Positions 27,392 to 31,326 of a stretch of 64,000 nt of DNA are shown here, piece by piece. Numbering within the stretch: the stretch's first letter is position 1; the number at the start of each line of letters is the position of its first letter. A program made the translations under genes and the position numbers. Under the pieces are notes generated by a model. The model searched no databases and had not been told where the DNA came from. It saw only the letters and a program-made list of their open reading frames with translations. Source of the stretch: a virus; the IMG/VR virus record IMGVR_UViG_3300012988_000001, positions 246,414 through 310,413 of that record; one strand, 5' to 3'.

Positions 27392-27420
27392 GGGACAAAC
27401 TAGTGAAAATGTGATATAAT
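27392..27420 (+). promoter_or_regulatory. class B promoter directly upstream of tRNA
   Basis: tgggacaaactagtgaaaatgtgatataat. The tRNA starts 9 nt after the -10. Confidence 0.65.
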
Positions 27421-27428
27421 ATAATTAC

Positions 27429-27518
27429 GGAAGGTTGGGTGAGTGGTTGAAACCAACGGTCTACTAAATCGTCATACGCGAAAGCGTATCGTGGGTTCGA
27501 ATCCCACATCTTCCGCCA
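27429..27518 (+). tRNA. tRNA, type II (Ser-like long variable arm). Anticodon loop reads CUACUAA (ACU?)
   Basis: Acceptor GGAAGGT/ATCTTCC, T-arm GTGGGTTCGAATCCCAC, CCA end, variable arm atacgc-gaaa-gcgtat. Anticodon assignment is uncertain. Confidence 0.65.
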
Positions 27519-27533
27519 CATTTATTTGAAAAT

Positions 27534-28082
27534 ATGAAACGCGAAATATATGAACTAAATCCTACAAGTTGTAAACATTGTGGGAACATAATACCATACA
27601 AGAAAGGTGTACAAGATAAAGTATTTTGTAATCTTTCATGTTCGGCTCAATACAATAATAATCAAAAATACCAAACTACCAAGATAGATAATATTTGCTT
27701 GGGATGTGGTGTATCTTTTACTACGAATAACAGACCTAGAAAATTCTGTTCGCATCTATGCTCAACTGAGTCAAAGAAGAACGAAAATATCAACCAGTGG
27801 AAATCTGGCGAACTCCAAGGATATAGCGGGAAAGCAAAACAGTTGAAACCGTGGATACGGAAGTATCTATTTGAAGTTCGAGGAACAGCTTGTTCGGAAT
27901 GTGGTTGGGATAAACGCCACCCAATGGATGGGGCAGTACTTACAGAAATCGATCATATCGATGGAAACGCCGAAAATTGTCATGAAGATAATTTGAGGAT
28001 TCTATGTCCAAACTGTCATAGTATGACAGAAACACACCGTGCTCGTAACAAGAATGGTACGAGAAATACACGATATAACTGA
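27534..28082 (+). CDS. HNH homing endonuclease
   Basis: C-terminal CSECGW...EIDHIDGNAENCHEDNLRILCPNCHSMT HNH motif plus N-terminal Cys-rich zinc fingers. Confidence 0.8.
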   Translation: MKREIYELNPTSCKHCGNIIPYKKGVQDKVFCNLSCSAQYNNNQKYQTTKIDNICLGCGVSFTTNNRPRKFCSHLCSTESKKNENINQWKSGELQGYSGKAKQLKPWIRKYLFEVRGTACSECGWDKRHPMDGAVLTEIDHIDGNAENCHEDNLRILCPNCHSMTETHRARNKNGTRNTRYN

Positions 28083-28092
28083 GGATTTAAAT

Positions 28093-29400
28093 ATGGGTAG
28101 CTTTAACGCATCATGTGCAGTAAGTCATTGTAGTATTAATCCGGGTGATCCAGTAAAATTGATCCCTATTGTAAGTAACACACCGATTCACGGTGAATAT
28201 AACGCAGACATGCATAAAGGCTTTTCATGTTATTGCCATGATCAGTTCAGTATGATTGGCTATCCTATGGATGCCACATATGAAGATTATGGTGATTTTG
28301 ATGTTAAAGAGGATATGTTCTCTGAATATAACCTAAGCATTATTCGAGACAAGTTCACGAAGAATGTCCCACCTGAAGATGAGAAAGATGATTACAGTTC
28401 AATTGCTGATAGCCGCAATGGTTACAGTCTTGAACCAGAAGATTTGGATTGGAGTAAAATAGGTGAAATGATCCATTTCGGTAATATGTATCTCGATAGT
28501 AATAAAGACCGCACTAAGCGTCGTTATATGGGATTCTTCCCAGTACACAAATGTGTATACGATCTATTGATGCAACGTAACCCAGAAATGCACTTTGATG
28601 ATTCATATGATAACGTTAATTTCCAACGTTTTCTAGAGAAAGCACTCAAAGACAATCCACCATCAACTACCAATAATCCGGTATTCGAAGAAGCTATTGT
28701 ACAATACATGGAACTCTTCGGTCCACTAATTGGTACTGAACTAAAAGACGGAACTATCATGACACCGGAAATGGCTCATGAGAAAGCTGTTGGTATGGCA
28801 GACCTAAAAGTGGAAATGGCTGAACTACGTGATAGTCATCGTCGTGAGTACTCATACGATAACACATCAAGTATCAAACGTTTCCTACGCTATCGTAAAG
28901 AAAACAAACTACCAGTACTCACTGATGAAGAACATATTGCACTAGTAACCCTAGACGCTGAATGTACTTATCTAATCCGTGGTTTGAATGATCTTCAAAT
29001 CCAACTTATCCCACCAATGACAGCGAGGCAAGAGTATGATAAGACTGATCACGCAACGTTCCTAGTAGCTTGTGGTAAAGCACTACTCGCTATGCAAGCA
29101 GTAAGTGATGAAGAACATTATGGTGATGATGAAGACGATGTAGAAAGCACTAAGGTAGTGGTTGAAGCAGAAATTCATGTATCACTAAATAACCTACGCG
29201 AATCGGCTCAACACGACTGGAAGCCAGAACGTGGAAAAGTAAAAGTTGACGCGATTGATCGTTTTGCGGTACAATACCCAGACGGCGTTACTCTAAGTGC
29301 TGGTGAAGTAATTTCACAGGGCTATGGAGTAATGCTAGTAAGTATGCCAAGTACTATCCTACCAATCGTGTTTAAAAACGATATCAAGGTAGAAGAATGA
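28093..29400 (+). CDS. hypothetical protein (435 aa)
   Basis: Start at the ATG following the HNH stop, with GAGGA RBS. Confidence 0.5.
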   Translation: MGSFNASCAVSHCSINPGDPVKLIPIVSNTPIHGEYNADMHKGFSCYCHDQFSMIGYPMDATYEDYGDFDVKEDMFSEYNLSIIRDKFTKNVPPEDEKDDYSSIADSRNGYSLEPEDLDWSKIGEMIHFGNMYLDSNKDRTKRRYMGFFPVHKCVYDLLMQRNPEMHFDDSYDNVNFQRFLEKALKDNPPSTTNNPVFEEAIVQYMELFGPLIGTELKDGTIMTPEMAHEKAVGMADLKVEMAELRDSHRREYSYDNTSSIKRFLRYRKENKLPVLTDEEHIALVTLDAECTYLIRGLNDLQIQLIPPMTARQEYDKTDHATFLVACGKALLAMQAVSDEEHYGDDEDDVESTKVVVEAEIHVSLNNLRESAQHDWKPERGKVKVDAIDRFAVQYPDGVTLSAGEVISQGYGVMLVSMPSTILPIVFKNDIKVEE

Positions 29401-29762
29401 CAGCACAAGAGCTAATCGAACGCTTACAACGCATGAAACCGGAAACGGAGATTGTAGTTGCAGTAAACGTACCATATGACTCAATTGGACCATCGCCTAG
29501 TGCGATGGTTACACAAGCCTTTAGTGGCTTTGATTGGGACAATGGAACACTACGTTTGAGTACTGAAGGAAACTTAGTGAAGTTCAATGATGAACAATTC
29601 GCAGCTTTCCAACAGATGAAAAAAGAAGCACGTAAAACTCGCAGTGATGCGTGGTACAAATTAGGCGGTCGAAACCTATCTTGGGAAGACTGCAAAGCAT
29701 TAGAAGAACAAATGGACAAAGATGTTCACCCTTTATTCAAGGGAAGTTATAACAAGGACTAA
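29397..29762 (+). CDS. ELI-family small protein (N-terminal ELIERLQRMKPETEIVVAV)
   Basis: Shares an N-terminal motif with ORFs at 42984, 45831 and 59042. Confidence 0.45.
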   Translation: MTAQELIERLQRMKPETEIVVAVNVPYDSIGPSPSAMVTQAFSGFDWDNGTLRLSTEGNLVKFNDEQFAAFQQMKKEARKTRSDAWYKLGGRNLSWEDCKALEEQMDKDVHPLFKGSYNKD

Positions 29763-29764
29763 CG

Positions 29765-30322
29765 ATGATTCAAGATATTCAAGCACTAATGAGTCAAATC
29801 TCTGATTATCTTTCTGATAAAGAAGGGTTTACAACAGAGTTATCAAATAACGGTTGTGTACTAAAAGTTATCAACAATAATGTTGACCCTGTGCAGGAAA
29901 CGCAGTATGATGGTTATGAACTATTACTTTATACTCTAGGTACTCGTAAATTAGGACATGACATTGATCTAAACATTCACGAAACCGAAGCAGGTAAAGT
30001 GTTTGCTATTAATACCGAAGCACAACTTGATATCCGGGCTTATATGTCAGATATCAACTCACTAATGGCTACTACTGATGATGCTGATGTACAATCCATC
30101 ATTCTATGTGACCAAACTGGTGACAGTGCTCAACCAATTTGTCTAATGACACTATACAAAAATGGTAACTGGCTACGTCAAGACTTGACAATGGCTGAAG
30201 TACTATATGCTGCTACTCACGAACTTGTGATTGAGAAGCAAGACGGTGCATATGTTTATGGAAAACTCCGTGAACTAGCAAACCGTGTTATTTCTGAAGC
30301 TAAAGAAGCTGAAGTAAAATAA
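29765..30322 (+). CDS. hypothetical protein (185 aa)
   Basis: ORF. Confidence 0.45.
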   Translation: MIQDIQALMSQISDYLSDKEGFTTELSNNGCVLKVINNNVDPVQETQYDGYELLLYTLGTRKLGHDIDLNIHETEAGKVFAINTEAQLDIRAYMSDINSLMATTDDADVQSIILCDQTGDSAQPICLMTLYKNGNWLRQDLTMAEVLYAATHELVIEKQDGAYVYGKLRELANRVISEAKEAEVK

Positions 30323-30334
30323 TTGAAAAAAGTT

Positions 30335-30363
30335 GGGACAAAACGTGAATTTTGTCCTATAAT
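30335..30363 (+). promoter_or_regulatory. class B promoter with perfect GGACAAAAC/GTTTTGTCC palindrome between -35 and -10
   Basis: ttgggacaaaacgtgaattttgtcctataat. Nearly identical to the copy at 58993. Confidence 0.65.
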
Positions 30364-30511
30364 ATAAGTATGAAGAGGTTACACCCCGTGTGTTTAAGTA
30401 ACGTAGCCTCTTCGAACATATAAAATGTTATTTCCATTTTATGGTTCATCCTTTTTTTGATATAATTAATGAAACAAGTGTTCTCCGCTTTATGCGTCTT
30501 GTTTCATTTCT

Positions 30512-30590
30512 GCTGATGTGGCTCAATTGGTACAGCACCGTACTTGTAATACGGCATTTTTTGTGGGTTCAAGTCCTACCATCAGCACCA
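30512..30590 (+). tRNA. tRNA-Thr (anticodon TGT)
   Basis: Acceptor GCTGATG/CATCAGC, anticodon stem-loop ccgta-cttgtaa-tacgg, T-arm gtgggttcaagtcctac, CCA. Confidence 0.7.
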
Positions 30591-30648
30591 CGTAAGTTCG
30601 AATAATATTCTCTGCACCATAAATAAAGATATTACGAAAGGATATCTT

Positions 30649-31326
30649 ATGGAAGAAATATTATTTGAATTATACCGTCACAAAGGTTCGTCATTGAATA
30701 AAACTGATATTGATGAATGTGACAAATTACCATCGTACAATACACTATGTCGTAAAGGCTATAGATTGACCGGACCGAAAGGTTTGAATGAGCAATTTAA
30801 ACAAAGACTTTATGCAGAAAATTCTAAAAAATGCCTTGTGTGTTCAAACGAATTAGAGTATAGTACTGACATTGAGATTAAGAAGTTTTGCTCACATTCA
30901 TGTTCTGCTACGTATTCTAATACGCGTAGAATACGAGAGAAGAAACCAGATAATCAATGTCTAAATTGTGACAAAACTGTTTCGTCAAGGAATGTTTACT
31001 GTGATAGTAATTGTTCAATTGAACACAAAAATAAAGTGTGGTTAACGGAATGGTTAAATGGCGAACGCCCCGGTTATAGTGGTAAAACATATCAACTATC
31101 ACCAACTGTTCGCAGATACTTACACGAAACACGAGGAACCGCATGTTCCGAATGTGGATGGGACAAGAAGCACCCAGTTGATGGTTCAGTACTCACAGAG
31201 GTTGATCACATTGATGGAAATGCATCTAATTGCCGTCCAGAGAATTTACGGATATTGTGTCCGAACTGTCATTCTATGACACCAACTTTCAGAGCAAGGA
31301 ATCCTGATTCAGTGCGAAGAAGATAA
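30649..31326 (+). CDS. HNH homing endonuclease (paralog of 27534..28082)
   Basis: C-terminal 80 aa nearly identical to the 27534 gene (RGTACSECGWDKKHPVDGSVLTEVDHIDGNASNC...LRILCPNCHSMT). Confidence 0.8.
   Translation: MEEILFELYRHKGSSLNKTDIDECDKLPSYNTLCRKGYRLTGPKGLNEQFKQRLYAENSKKCLVCSNELEYSTDIEIKKFCSHSCSATYSNTRRIREKKPDNQCLNCDKTVSSRNVYCDSNCSIEHKNKVWLTEWLNGERPGYSGKTYQLSPTVRRYLHETRGTACSECGWDKKHPVDGSVLTEVDHIDGNASNCRPENLRILCPNCHSMTPTFRARNPDSVRRR

What the first reader, a model, noticed from the sequence alone, without database searches (positions are those of the whole stretch)
27392..31326. tRNA-HNH cassettes: every HNH homing endonuclease gene is directly adjacent to a tRNA gene
Five HNH endonuclease genes are present: 27534-28082, 30649-31326, 54435-55004, 61384-61932 and minus-strand 44922-45764. 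Each lies within 60 nt of a tRNA: tRNA 27429-27518 then HNH, tRNA-Thr 30512-30590 then HNH, tRNA-Pro 54315-54395 then HNH then tRNA-Asn, tRNA-Gly 61297-61372 then HNH, and tRNA 44815-44906 next to the minus-strand HNH. The 27534 and 30649 enzymes share an almost identical C-terminal 80 aa, which indicates a recent duplication. Both are preceded by the same class B promoter plus tRNA arrangement, as if a promoter-tRNA-HNH unit is the mobile module. The minus-strand HNH gene is the only reverse-oriented gene, consistent with a recent free-standing insertion.
Basis: partly seen in the sequence, partly recalled or inferred. Interest (0 to 1): 0.6.

Follow-up and report, generated by a model that had tools for sequence, protein, structure and literature searches.

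The report
Homing endonuclease genes beside phage tRNAs
In this jumbo-phage fragment, five selfish nuclease genes each sit right next to a tRNA gene; this is a real, non-random pattern and another example of the known habit of phage homing endonucleases to live in tRNA clusters.

Summary
Five ORFs (27534-28082, 30649-31326, 54435-55004, 61384-61932, and 44922-45764 on the minus strand) each lie 6-58 nt from a tRNA gene. Only 3 of 107 other ORFs do (Fisher p = 4e-7). Four are HNH endonucleases by PHROG or Pfam. The fifth has no family hit but shares their zinc-ribbon module and has an HNH-like C-terminal domain.

They behave as free-standing homing endonuclease genes. The closest phages (Salmonella phage Munch and four others) lack HNH1 and HNH2, and Munch, the one examined at the other three sites, lacks all five. 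Munch still carries remnants of two. Distant jumbo phages have homologues at the same tRNAs: GAP32 at tRNA-Thr and tRNA-Met, Serratia phage BF at tRNA-Pro.

In IMG/VR the families are tRNA-cluster specialists with isotype bias: the HNH1/2 family with Thr, the HNH3 family with Pro, and the minus-strand family with Met, antisense to the tRNA.

Two interpretations fail. There is no recent duplication: the C-termini are 73% identical in protein and 65% in DNA. The promoter is not part of a mobile unit, because Munch has the same promoter and tRNA without the HNH.

Endonuclease genes in phage tRNA clusters are already known (T4 SegB, T5 F-Tfl, mycobacteriophages). This is a new member of a known kind, of modest interest.

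The parts
27391..27425 (+). Resident phage promoter-like motif (TGGGACAAA-N17-TATAAT), 3 nt upstream of tRNA-Ser. Not part of the mobile element.
   Evidence: 5 exact matches in the window against 0 expected. The same motif precedes tRNA-Ser in the HNH-less phage Munch.
27429..27518 (+). tRNA-Ser (anticodon ACT), upstream neighbour of HNH1.
   Evidence: ARAGORN. Rfam tRNA 52.8 bits. 91% identical to the Munch tRNA-Ser.
27534..28082 (+). HNH1: free-standing HNH endonuclease gene (182 aa) with two FCS-like zinc ribbons and a C-terminal HNH domain.
   Evidence: PHROG 1271 at 2.6e-26. Pfam HNH at 19.7 bits, just under the cut-off. Zinc-ribbon motif. Cleanly absent from Munch between tRNA-Ser and the homologue of 28039-29400, and from 4 further relatives.
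30334..30363 (+). Resident promoter-like motif about 148 nt upstream of tRNA-Thr.
   Evidence: Also present in Munch at the same place (L001 8329-8358).
30512..30590 (+). tRNA-Thr (TGT), upstream neighbour of HNH2.
   Evidence: Rfam 59 bits. Not homologous to the Munch tRNA-Thr, although both flanks are conserved.
30649..31326 (+). HNH2: free-standing HNH endonuclease gene (225 aa), an old paralogue of HNH1.
   Evidence: Pfam HNH_3 at 4.6e-7. PHROG 1271 at 2.4e-26. Munch keeps only the leader and about 30 N-terminal codons. GAP32 has a 53%-identical homologue after its tRNA-Thr.
44589..44666 (+). tRNA-Arg (TCT), inside the segment that differs from Munch at the Met site. Possibly co-transferred with the neighbouring tRNA-Met-like gene and m5.
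   Evidence: In Munch the tRNA-Arg lies about 5 kb away. The order Arg(TCT), Met, m5-homologue recurs in several IMG/VR loci.
44815..44906 (+). tRNA-Met-like gene (CAT) with a 17-nt insert in the variable region and an atypical T-loop. Convergent neighbour of m5.
   Evidence: ARAGORN. Rfam 39.8 bits in a focused search. Not homologous to the Munch tRNA-Met.
44910..44940 (.). 12-bp hairpin with a TTAA loop and a T-run, likely the terminator of the tRNA unit. The m5 stop codon lies in its loop.
   Evidence: Read from the sequence. Munch has an annotated terminator after its tRNA-Met. The consensus scan did not call this hairpin.
44922..45764 (-). m5: putative homing endonuclease (280 aa) with N-terminal FCS-like zinc ribbons and a C-terminal divergent HNH-like domain. 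Antisense to the tRNA operon.
54315..54395 (+). tRNA-Pro (TGG), upstream neighbour of HNH3.
   Evidence: 75% identical to the Munch tRNA-Pro.
54435..55004 (+). HNH3: free-standing HNH endonuclease gene (189 aa) between tRNA-Pro and tRNA-Asn.
   Evidence: PHROG 1271 at 2e-10 and PHROG 8048 at 2.9e-7. Pfam hits only sub-threshold. Absent from Munch except for its last ~45 nt. Serratia phage BF has a 54%-identical homologue after tRNA-Pro.
55011..55086 (+). tRNA-Asn, starting 6 nt after the HNH3 stop.
61297..61372 (+). tRNA-Gly (TCC), upstream neighbour of HNH4.
   Evidence: Not homologous to the Munch tRNA-Gly.
61384..61932 (+). HNH4: HNH_3-type endonuclease gene (182 aa) with an N-terminal nuclease domain and a C-terminal zinc ribbon.
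   Evidence: Pfam HNH_3 at 7.2e-7. PHROG 15471 at 1.6e-29. In Munch the same slot holds an unrelated gene of PHROG 25279.

Best explanation
The window comes from a jumbo phage related to Salmonella phage Munch. Its tRNA region carries five free-standing homing endonuclease genes (HEGs).

Architecture. Each protein combines one to three FCS-like zinc ribbons (DNA binding) with a His-Me/HNH nuclease domain. That domain is clear in four proteins and probable in the minus-strand one (m5).

Inferred mechanism, by analogy with T4 SegB:
1. During co-infection the enzyme nicks or cuts the HEG-less allele of a related phage, in or next to a particular tRNA gene.
2. Recombinational repair from the HEG-bearing genome copies in the HEG.
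3. The adjacent tRNA allele is often copied with it (co-conversion).

Expression, also inferred:
- The four same-strand genes have no promoter of their own. They are probably transcribed with the tRNAs from resident phage promoters and separated from them by tRNA processing. A stop codon abutting the next tRNA may keep expression low.
- m5 lies convergent to the tRNA unit, with its stop codon in the loop of the terminator hairpin.

Shown: position, domain content, sporadic distribution, decay remnants, and family-wide linkage to tRNAs.
Inferred: cleavage, the identity of the target, and the way the genes are expressed.
For: Adjacency and enrichment:
- 5 of 5 against 3 of 107 ORFs lie within 60 nt of a tRNA, p = 4e-7.
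- There are no other HEGs in the window.

Domains:
- HNH hits for four proteins.
- Invariant H...N...H and two CxxC pairs in the HNH1/2 family alignment.
- The FCS-like zinc-ribbon motif occurs in exactly these 5 of 269 ORFs.
- It is homologous between m5 and the HNH1/2 family (hhalign 98%).

Sporadic distribution:
- Five close relatives lack HNH1 and HNH2.
- Munch lacks all five.
- GAP32 has homologues at tRNA-Thr and tRNA-Met.
- Serratia phage BF has one at tRNA-Pro.

Decay remnants in Munch:
- The 5' part of HNH2, with a 43-nt deletion that removes the start codon.
- The last ~45 nt of HNH3.

Co-conversion signature:
- The Thr, Met and Gly alleles next to HEGs are not homologous to Munch's.
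- Among non-flanked tRNAs, Ser(TGA), Asp, Glu and Lys are 83-95% identical to Munch's; tRNA-Arg, inside the replaced Met-site segment, is 72%.

Family-wide, in IMG/VR:
- tRNA within 120 nt of 55 of 67 ORFs (HNH1/2 family), 17 of 19 (HNH3 family) and 21 of 29 (m5 family).
- Only 3 of 9 for the looser HNH4 relatives.
- Isotype bias: Thr 43% of adjacent tRNAs against 14% of all tRNAs in the loci (p = 2e-12); Pro 46% against 17% (p = 5e-4); Met 31% against 11% (p = 6e-3).
- A T5-like homologue abuts tRNA-Thr.

Precedent:
- SegB lies in the T4 tRNA cluster, recognises the T-psi-C motif of tRNA genes, and drags neighbouring tRNA genes along (PMC2330249).
[quoted passage not shown] 18).
Against: - No cleavage or homing data exist for any of these proteins, and target sites are unknown.
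- HNH3 does not reach any Pfam threshold.
- At the tRNA-Gly site the difference from Munch is a gene replacement, not a simple insertion.
- One close m5 relative (L153) sits at a site with no tRNA.
- The isotype statistics are not corrected for shared ancestry of the loci.
Confidence: 0.75

Rival explanations
1. Permissive landing pad. The endonucleases do not target tRNA genes. HEGs simply accumulate in tRNA clusters because these regions are dispensable, rich in short intergenic spacers, and strongly transcribed, so insertions there are tolerated and expressed.
For: - The whole 27-64 kb region consists of small accessory genes with many differences from Munch.
- HNH1 belongs to a Thr-biased family but sits after tRNA-Ser.
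- An m5 relative sits at a site with no tRNA.
- HNH4's more distant relatives are mostly not near tRNAs.
Against: - Within the same region, 68 of 70 other ORFs are not tRNA-adjacent, while all 5 HEGs are.
- Each family shows a different isotype bias (Thr, Pro, Met) and a fixed geometry in very diverse phages.
- SegB is known to read a tRNA-gene motif (PMC2330249).
Confidence: 0.15
2. Domesticated helper. The nucleases are kept because they benefit the phage. For example, they could promote recombination or segmental amplification of tRNA genes that counter tRNA-cleaving host defences, as reported for SegB.
For: - SegB drives amplification of tRNA-Tyr to escape Septu, and segB is widely co-located with tRNAs (PMC13096335).
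- tRNA alleles next to the HEGs are the most divergent from Munch.
- Some related loci have tRNA-Thr genes on both sides of the HNH.
Against: - The closest relatives do without HNH1 and HNH2, and Munch lacks all five and carries decaying remnants. This is the signature of selfish elements rather than of maintained functions.
- No tandem amplification is seen in the window.
- This reading is compatible with the best explanation rather than exclusive of it.
Confidence: 0.2
3. The minus-strand gene (44922-45764) is not a nuclease. It would be a zinc-finger DNA- or RNA-binding protein, for example a regulator of the tRNA operon, that merely shares its binding module with the HNH genes.
For: - No Pfam or PHROG HNH hit.
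- hhalign finds homology only in the zinc-ribbon region.
Against: - The C-terminal domain is the best-conserved part of the family, with invariant D-H, N and N/K in HNH-like spacing.
- The model is confident (pLDDT 92.9).
- The top PDB matches are almost all HNH nucleases, and the weaker BFVD matches are annotated HNH endonucleases.
- Sporadic distribution and site switching fit a mobile nuclease.
Confidence: 0.15
4. A promoter-tRNA-HNH unit is the mobile module, and the 27534 and 30649 copies arose by a recent duplication of it.
For: - Both genes follow a TGGGACAAA...TATAAT motif and a tRNA.
- They are paralogues.
Against: - Munch has the same promoter and tRNA-Ser, and the same promoter and a tRNA-Thr, without functional HNH genes.
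- The motif also occurs at three sites in the window with no HNH.
- The two tRNAs are different (Ser and Thr), and the promoter-to-tRNA spacing differs (3 nt against 148 nt).
- The paralogues are 65% identical in DNA over their best-conserved part, with synonymous sites largely saturated.
Confidence: 0.03

Closest known systems
T4 SegB (GIY-YIG free-standing homing endonuclease in the T4 tRNA gene cluster)
   Same: - An intergenic HEG between tRNA genes.
- Absent from close relatives.
- Spreads together with flanking tRNA genes.
- Its recognition site lies in tRNA genes (T-psi-C motif).
- The segB stop abuts the next tRNA.
- Association with tRNAs is widespread across phages (PMC2330249, PMC13096335).
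   Different: - The nuclease fold differs: GIY-YIG, against HNH/His-Me here. No GIY-YIG hit was found in the window.
- The SegB association shows no isotype preference (PMC13096335). The families here are biased to Thr, Pro or Met.
[quoted passage not shown] 2004, cited in PMC2330249 and PMC5714182)
   Same: - HNH-family enzymes encoded among tRNA genes of a virulent phage.
- A homologue of HNH1/2 in the T5-like phage HdH2 abuts tRNA-Thr within the tRNA region.
   Different: - Whether HNH1/2 are orthologues of a named F-Tfl enzyme was not tested.
- The jumbo-phage proteins carry extra N-terminal zinc ribbons. The T5-like homologue is only about 130 aa.
T4 Mob proteins and I-HmuI-type free-standing or intron-encoded HNH homing endonucleases
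   Same: - HNH or HNH_3 nuclease with modular DNA-binding domains.
- Sporadic distribution.
- Gene conversion of flanking markers.
   Different: - Those enzymes target protein-coding genes (nrd, DNA polymerase and others), not tRNA clusters.
- They use NUMOD or HTH modules rather than the FCS-like zinc ribbons seen here.
HNH endonucleases in tRNA arrays of mycobacteriophages and other lytic phages (noted in PMC6409571 and PMC10194208)
   Same: HNH genes as recurrent members of phage tRNA clusters, proposed to shuffle tRNA repertoires.
   Different: Those reports are descriptive notes. No family-level or isotype-level analysis was made, and the antisense m5 family is not mentioned.

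Membership tests
HNH / His-Me finger endonucleases (Pfam HNH PF01844, HNH_3 PF13392) | A match to an HNH family model at a curated threshold. | tested here: met
   HNH2 (29.8 bits) and HNH4 (29.2 bits) exceed the HNH_3 cut-off of 24.8. HNH1 is just below the Pfam cut-offs but hits HNH PHROG 1271 at 2.6e-26. HNH3 is supported only by PHROGs (2e-10, 2.9e-7) and has no Pfam hit above threshold.
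HNH / His-Me finger endonucleases (Pfam HNH PF01844, HNH_3 PF13392) | Catalytic His, structural Asn and metal-binding His/Asn of the beta-beta-alpha-Me motif are present. | tested here: met
   In the HNH1/2 family alignment H187, N199 and H208 are invariant, as are C166, C169, C204 and C207. The corresponding VHH...ENL...CPTHH in HNH3 and HVHH...N...N...H in HNH4 are read directly from the sequences.
HNH / His-Me finger endonucleases: the minus-strand ORF 44922-45764 only | Detectable sequence or fold homology of the C-terminal domain to HNH nucleases. | tested here: inconclusive
Free-standing homing endonuclease genes | Intergenic position (not in an intron or intein), with presence/absence polymorphism between otherwise syntenic relatives. 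| tested here: met
   All five are absent from Munch, and HNH1 and HNH2 from four more relatives. Homologues occur at the same tRNAs in distant phages.
Free-standing homing endonuclease genes | Degeneration and loss stages of the HEG life cycle. | tested here: met
   Munch retains a start-less 5' fragment of HNH2 and the last ~45 nt of HNH3.
Free-standing homing endonuclease genes | Site-specific cleavage or nicking of the HEG-less allele, and biased inheritance in mixed infection. | not testable with these tools
   Requires biochemistry and phage crosses.
SegB-like (GIY-YIG) tRNA-cluster homing endonucleases | A GIY-YIG catalytic domain. | tested here: not met
   No GIY-YIG family appears among the Pfam or PHROG hits of the 93 window ORFs. 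The resemblance is functional and positional only.
T5 F-Tfl HNH endonucleases of the tRNA region | Orthology to F-TflI, F-TflII or F-TflIV. | not tested
   Only a T5-like homologue (HdH2 gene 00062, next to tRNA-Thr) was seen. The F-Tfl sequences were not compared.

The most novel reading that the evidence does not exclude
Three HNH-type families would be isotype-dedicated tRNA-gene homing endonucleases: the CPNCHSM/EIDHIDGN family of HNH1/2, the HNH3 family, and the uncharacterised PHROG 23051 family of the minus-strand gene. They would read a particular tRNA gene (Thr, Pro, Met/Asn) through FCS-like zinc ribbons and move that tRNA allele with them between unrelated phages. On this reading they are a main driver of phage tRNA repertoire turnover.

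The PHROG 23051 family would be a new His-Me nuclease family. It is obligatorily antisense to tRNA operons, and its reading frame often ends inside the tRNA's 3' half.
Probability: 0.35. Interest if true: 0.55.

Novelty: new member of a known kind. Interest (0 to 1): 0.38.

Why it matters
Phage tRNA sets are now seen as counter-defence against host tRNA-cleaving immunity. Understanding what reshuffles them therefore matters.

This case adds HNH-type examples, in jumbo phages, to the known link between homing endonucleases and tRNA clusters. It shows invasion, decay and tRNA allele replacement side by side. It also points to endonuclease families with a preference for one tRNA isotype.

If those preferences reflect DNA recognition, the enzymes would be natural tools that target tRNA genes, and markers of tRNA exchange between phages. 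The core phenomenon is already established, so the gain is incremental.

Tried and rejected
- Recent duplication of HNH1 and HNH2: rejected. Identity is 65% in DNA over the best-conserved 81 codons, and 34 of 59 identical residues use different codons.
- Promoter as part of the cassette: rejected.
- Search for further HEGs in the window (HNH, GIY-YIG, LAGLIDADG) by phmmer and by Pfam/PHROG scans of 93 ORFs: none found.
- Profile search of the m5 family against PDB sequences: only weak FCS or C2H2 zinc-finger hits.
- hhalign of the m5 C-terminal domain against the HNH1/2 nuclease domain: no similarity.
- The AFDB50 fold library was unavailable.
- Contig L120, whose product is 92% identical to HNH2, starts 258 nt upstream of the gene. 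It could not show whether HNH1 is present.
- The consensus terminator scan missed the hairpin after tRNA-Met, which was read by eye.
- The ARAGORN 'tRNA-Gly' at 58759-58844 is not supported by Rfam. It was counted as a tRNA in the enrichment test, where it adds no adjacency, and is not treated as a real tRNA elsewhere.
- The idea that HEG-adjacent tRNAs carry immunity mutations in the T-loop was considered. Only the Met-like genes show this, which is too few cases to claim.

Full report
**Context**

The window is a fragment of a jumbo myovirus.
- DNA searches find only partial matches. The best are Salmonella phages Munch, 7t3, PHA46 and SE_PL and Klebsiella phage fENko-Kae01, at about 78% identity over 35% of a 6-kb query.
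- Genes run almost entirely on the + strand.
- ARAGORN finds 14 tRNA genes between 27.4 and 61.4 kb.
- Rfam confirms 11 at the gathering score on the whole window and two more in focused searches: 44815-44903 at 39.8 bits and 55536-55618 at 40 bits.
- The ARAGORN 'tRNA-Gly' at 58759-58844 has no Rfam support.

**Check of the observation**

All five ORFs exist as described, and each lies next to a tRNA:

| ORF | Adjacent tRNA | Gap |
|---|---|---|
| HNH1 27534-28082 | tRNA-Ser(ACT) 27429-27518 | 15 nt |
| HNH2 30649-31326 | tRNA-Thr 30512-30590 | 58 nt |
| HNH3 54435-55004 | tRNA-Pro 54315-54395; then tRNA-Asn | 39 nt; 6 nt |
| HNH4 61384-61932 | tRNA-Gly 61297-61372 | 11 nt |
| m5 44922-45764 (minus strand) | tRNA-Met-like 44815-44906 | 15 nt (from its stop) |

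- HNH1-4 match HNH endonuclease PHROGs at 2.6e-26, 2.4e-26, 2e-10 and 1.6e-29.
- HNH2 and HNH4 pass Pfam HNH_3. HNH1 is just below the Pfam cut-offs. HNH3 has no Pfam hit above threshold.
- m5 matches only PHROG 23051 (unknown function) and no Pfam family.
- A scan of 93 non-nested ORFs of at least 85 aa against PHROGs and Pfam found no further HNH, GIY-YIG or LAGLIDADG gene.
- Of 112 ORFs of at least 60 aa, 8 lie within 60 nt of a tRNA. These include all five candidates. Fisher p = 4e-7, or 1.2e-6 when restricted to the tRNA-bearing 27-64 kb.
- The pattern is therefore real and not due to chance.

**What groups the five genes**

- A zinc-ribbon motif, C-x2-C-x(6-22)-[FY]C[SN]-x2-C, occurs once or twice in each of the five proteins. 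It occurs in none of the other 264 ORFs of at least 50 aa in six frames.
- It resembles FCS-type zinc fingers (weak PDB hits 2l8e and 2w0t).
- Profile-profile comparison of the m5 family (alignment A2) with the HNH1/2 family (A3) gives 98% probability over this module only.

The m5 C-terminal domain:
- It is the most conserved part of its family, with invariant R218-D219-H220, H239, N242, C243, N251 and K254.
- AlphaFold models are confident: pLDDT 86.9 for the full length and 92.9 for the domain.
- Foldseek against viral models finds family members, DUF7487 proteins (5e-5), and annotated HNH endonucleases only at E of 0.03 or weaker.
- hhalign against the HNH1/2 nuclease domain is negative.
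- I therefore call m5 a probable, divergent His-Me nuclease. This is not proven.

**Mobility**

In Munch:
- tRNA-Ser is followed directly by the homologue of 28039-29400. HNH1 is cleanly missing, and the same promoter-like motif and a 91%-identical tRNA-Ser are in place.
- After its tRNA-Thr, Munch keeps the HNH2 leader, then has a 43-nt deletion that removes the start codon. About 30 N-terminal codons follow at roughly 80% identity, and then the rest is gone.
- Between tRNA-Pro and tRNA-Asn, Munch has a 97-nt spacer. Its last ~45 nt are nearly identical to the 3' end of the HNH3 ORF.
- At tRNA-Met, Munch has tRNA-Met, a terminator, and the homologue of 45831-46232, with no m5. The window instead has a 1.25-kb segment with tRNA-Arg(TCT), a different tRNA-Met-like gene and m5.
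- After tRNA-Gly, Munch has an unrelated gene (PHROG 25279) where the window has HNH4 and a small ORF.
- Munch has its own HNH gene right after tRNA-Leu.

Four further relatives also lack HNH1 and HNH2.

More distant jumbo phages have homologues at the same tRNAs:
- GAP32_373 (53% identical) follows tRNA-Thr.
- GAP32_407 (54% identical) is antisense and overlaps tRNA-Met.
- Serratia phage BF has a 54%-identical HNH3 homologue after tRNA-Pro.

Sporadic distribution together with decaying remnants is the classic life cycle of a homing endonuclease gene.

**tRNA alleles next to the HEGs**

| tRNA | Next to an HEG? | Identity to Munch counterpart |
|---|---|---|
| Thr | yes | not homologous (65% or less) |
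| Met | yes | not homologous (65% or less) |
| Gly | yes | not homologous (65% or less) |
| Pro | yes | 75% |
| Ser(ACT) | yes | 91% |
| Ser(TGA) | no | 95% |
| Asp | no | 89% |
| Glu | no | 88% |
| Lys | no | 83% |
| Arg | no (inside the replaced Met-site segment) | 72% |

- At the Thr site the tRNA has been swapped while both flanks stay homologous.
- This fits co-conversion of flanking tRNA genes, as shown for SegB (PMC2330249). The sample is small.

**Family-wide test**

For each family I fetched IMG/VR loci with 2-kb flanks and ran ARAGORN. The adjacency and isotype columns count ORFs after removing identical ones; the 2-kb column counts all fetched loci.

| Family | Loci with a tRNA within 2 kb (before deduplication) | Distinct ORFs with a tRNA within 120 nt | Strand | Isotype bias (adjacent vs all tRNAs in the loci) |
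|---|---|---|---|---|
| HNH1/2 | 77 of 80 | 55 of 67 | same strand | Thr 43% vs 14%, p = 2e-12 |
| HNH3 | 20 of 20 | 17 of 19 | mostly same strand | Pro 46% vs 17%, p = 5e-4 |
| m5 | 35 of 35 | 21 of 29 | 24 of 26 adjacencies on the opposite strand | Met 31% vs 11%, p = 6e-3; Asn also enriched |
| HNH4 relatives | 3 of 10 | 3 of 9 | same strand | none evident |

- The p-values are and are not corrected for shared ancestry of the loci.
- In the m5 family the tRNA usually lies just beyond the stop codon or overlaps it.
- The HNH4 relatives are mostly matched through the generic HNH_3 core, so they give a rough baseline.
- A 130-aa homologue of HNH1/2 in the T5-like phage HdH2 ends exactly at tRNA-Thr in the T5-type tRNA region.
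- Closer m5 relatives show both conservation and site switching. L152 (71% identical) is at the same locus, next to a CAU tRNA-like gene with an aberrant T-loop. L153 (70% identical) sits at the equivalent of window positions ~58.75-59.25 kb, with no tRNA there.

- HNH1 and HNH2 are old paralogues. They are 51% identical overall. Over the last 81 aa they are 73% identical in protein and 65% in DNA, and 34 of the 59 identical residues use different codons.
- The C-terminal similarity is simply the family's conserved catalytic core.
- The TGGGACAAA-N-TATAAT motif is a resident promoter of this phage group. It occurs at five sites in the window (27391, 30334, 50345, 52374, 58992) and at seven distinct sites in about 50 kb of Munch. 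Two of those precede Munch's HNH-less tRNA-Ser and tRNA-Thr.
- The mobile unit at the Ser site is therefore the ORF alone.
- m5 is indeed the only supported minus-strand gene, but its orientation is a family trait.

**Mechanism**

Shown: the anatomy, the distribution and the decay remnants.

Inferred:
1. The zinc ribbons bind DNA and the His-Me domain nicks or cuts a site in or beside the cognate tRNA gene of an HEG-less co-infecting phage.
2. Repair copies in the HEG and often the neighbouring tRNA allele.
3. The same-strand HEGs probably ride on tRNA transcripts.
4. A stop codon placed 0-15 nt from the next tRNA would expose the mRNA to tRNA processing. Examples are HNH3 to tRNA-Asn (6 nt) and many family members. 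This was proposed as a way of limiting SegB and F-Tfl expression (PMC2330249, Discussion).
5. The m5 stop codon lies in the loop of a 12-bp hairpin with a T-run just after the tRNA-Met-like gene. This is a likely bidirectional terminator.

**Comparison with what is known**

- Homing endonuclease genes in phage tRNA clusters are established.
- SegB (GIY-YIG) lies in the T4 tRNA cluster, reads the T-psi-C motif of tRNA genes, and carries tRNA genes with it (PMC2330249).
- A 2026 study shows widespread segB-tRNA co-location and SegB-driven tRNA amplification against the Septu defence (PMC13096335).
- HNH genes have been noted in tRNA clusters of mycobacteriophages and 'many lytic phages' (PMC6409571, PMC10194208).
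- The genes here are not SegB family members, because no GIY-YIG domain is present, but they work like SegB.
- Possibly new details are the isotype bias of the individual HNH families and the antisense, tRNA-abutting PHROG 23051 family.

**Verdict**

- This is a new member of a known kind, and the interest is modest.

Noticed in passing
window 27429-27518: The tRNA-Ser has the anticodon ACT (A at position 34), which is unusual for bacterial-type tRNAs. The same anticodon loop is conserved in Munch.
   Followed up: no
window 55536-55621 and 55628-55696: A tRNA-like gene with an 8-nt anticodon loop (ARAGORN reports a 4-base anticodon, 'ctgg') scores 40 bits with Rfam. A further sub-threshold tRNA-like element (26.7 bits) follows directly. 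Neither is annotated in Munch.
   Followed up: partly
window 58759-58844: ARAGORN calls a tRNA-Gly here, but Rfam finds nothing. In the related contig L153 an m5-family gene sits at the equivalent position. This may be a decayed tRNA or a former endonuclease site.
   Followed up: partly
window 44815-44906; L152 about 10860-10935 (minus strand): The CAU tRNA-like genes next to m5-family genes are aberrant. The window copy has a 17-nt insert in the variable region and the T-loop TTAGAAT. The L152 copy has the T-loop GCCAGCA and is missed by ARAGORN. They could be self-immunity variants or pseudogenes.
   Followed up: partly
window 55180-55377: A 65-aa ORF fills the gap between tRNA-Asp and tRNA-Lys. 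In Munch these two tRNAs are 2 nt apart. The ORF has no PHROG hit.
   Followed up: partly
L040, L044, L077, L105, L106, L115, L116 (tRNA-Thr genes next to HNH1/2-family genes): Many phage tRNA-Thr(TGT) genes beside these endonuclease genes carry an extra small hairpin with a GAAA loop in the variable region.
   Followed up: no
window 62266-62303: A 38-nt terminator-like element is 97% identical to Munch, although the surrounding region is only about 66-70% identical or not homologous.
   Followed up: no
window 30371-30500: Two hairpins (about 30371-30416 and 30461-30500) lie between the promoter-like motif at 30334 and tRNA-Thr. Munch has a shorter, different spacer there.
   Followed up: no
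L152 15760-17676: In a related metagenomic contig, a DNA methylase gene is interrupted by an intein-like Hint plus LAGLIDADG insert. This is another kind of homing element in the same phage group.
   Followed up: no
L004 23442-24402 (Munch): Munch lacks all five window endonuclease genes but has its own HNH gene directly after tRNA-Leu. Its C-terminus resembles that of HNH4.
   Followed up: partly
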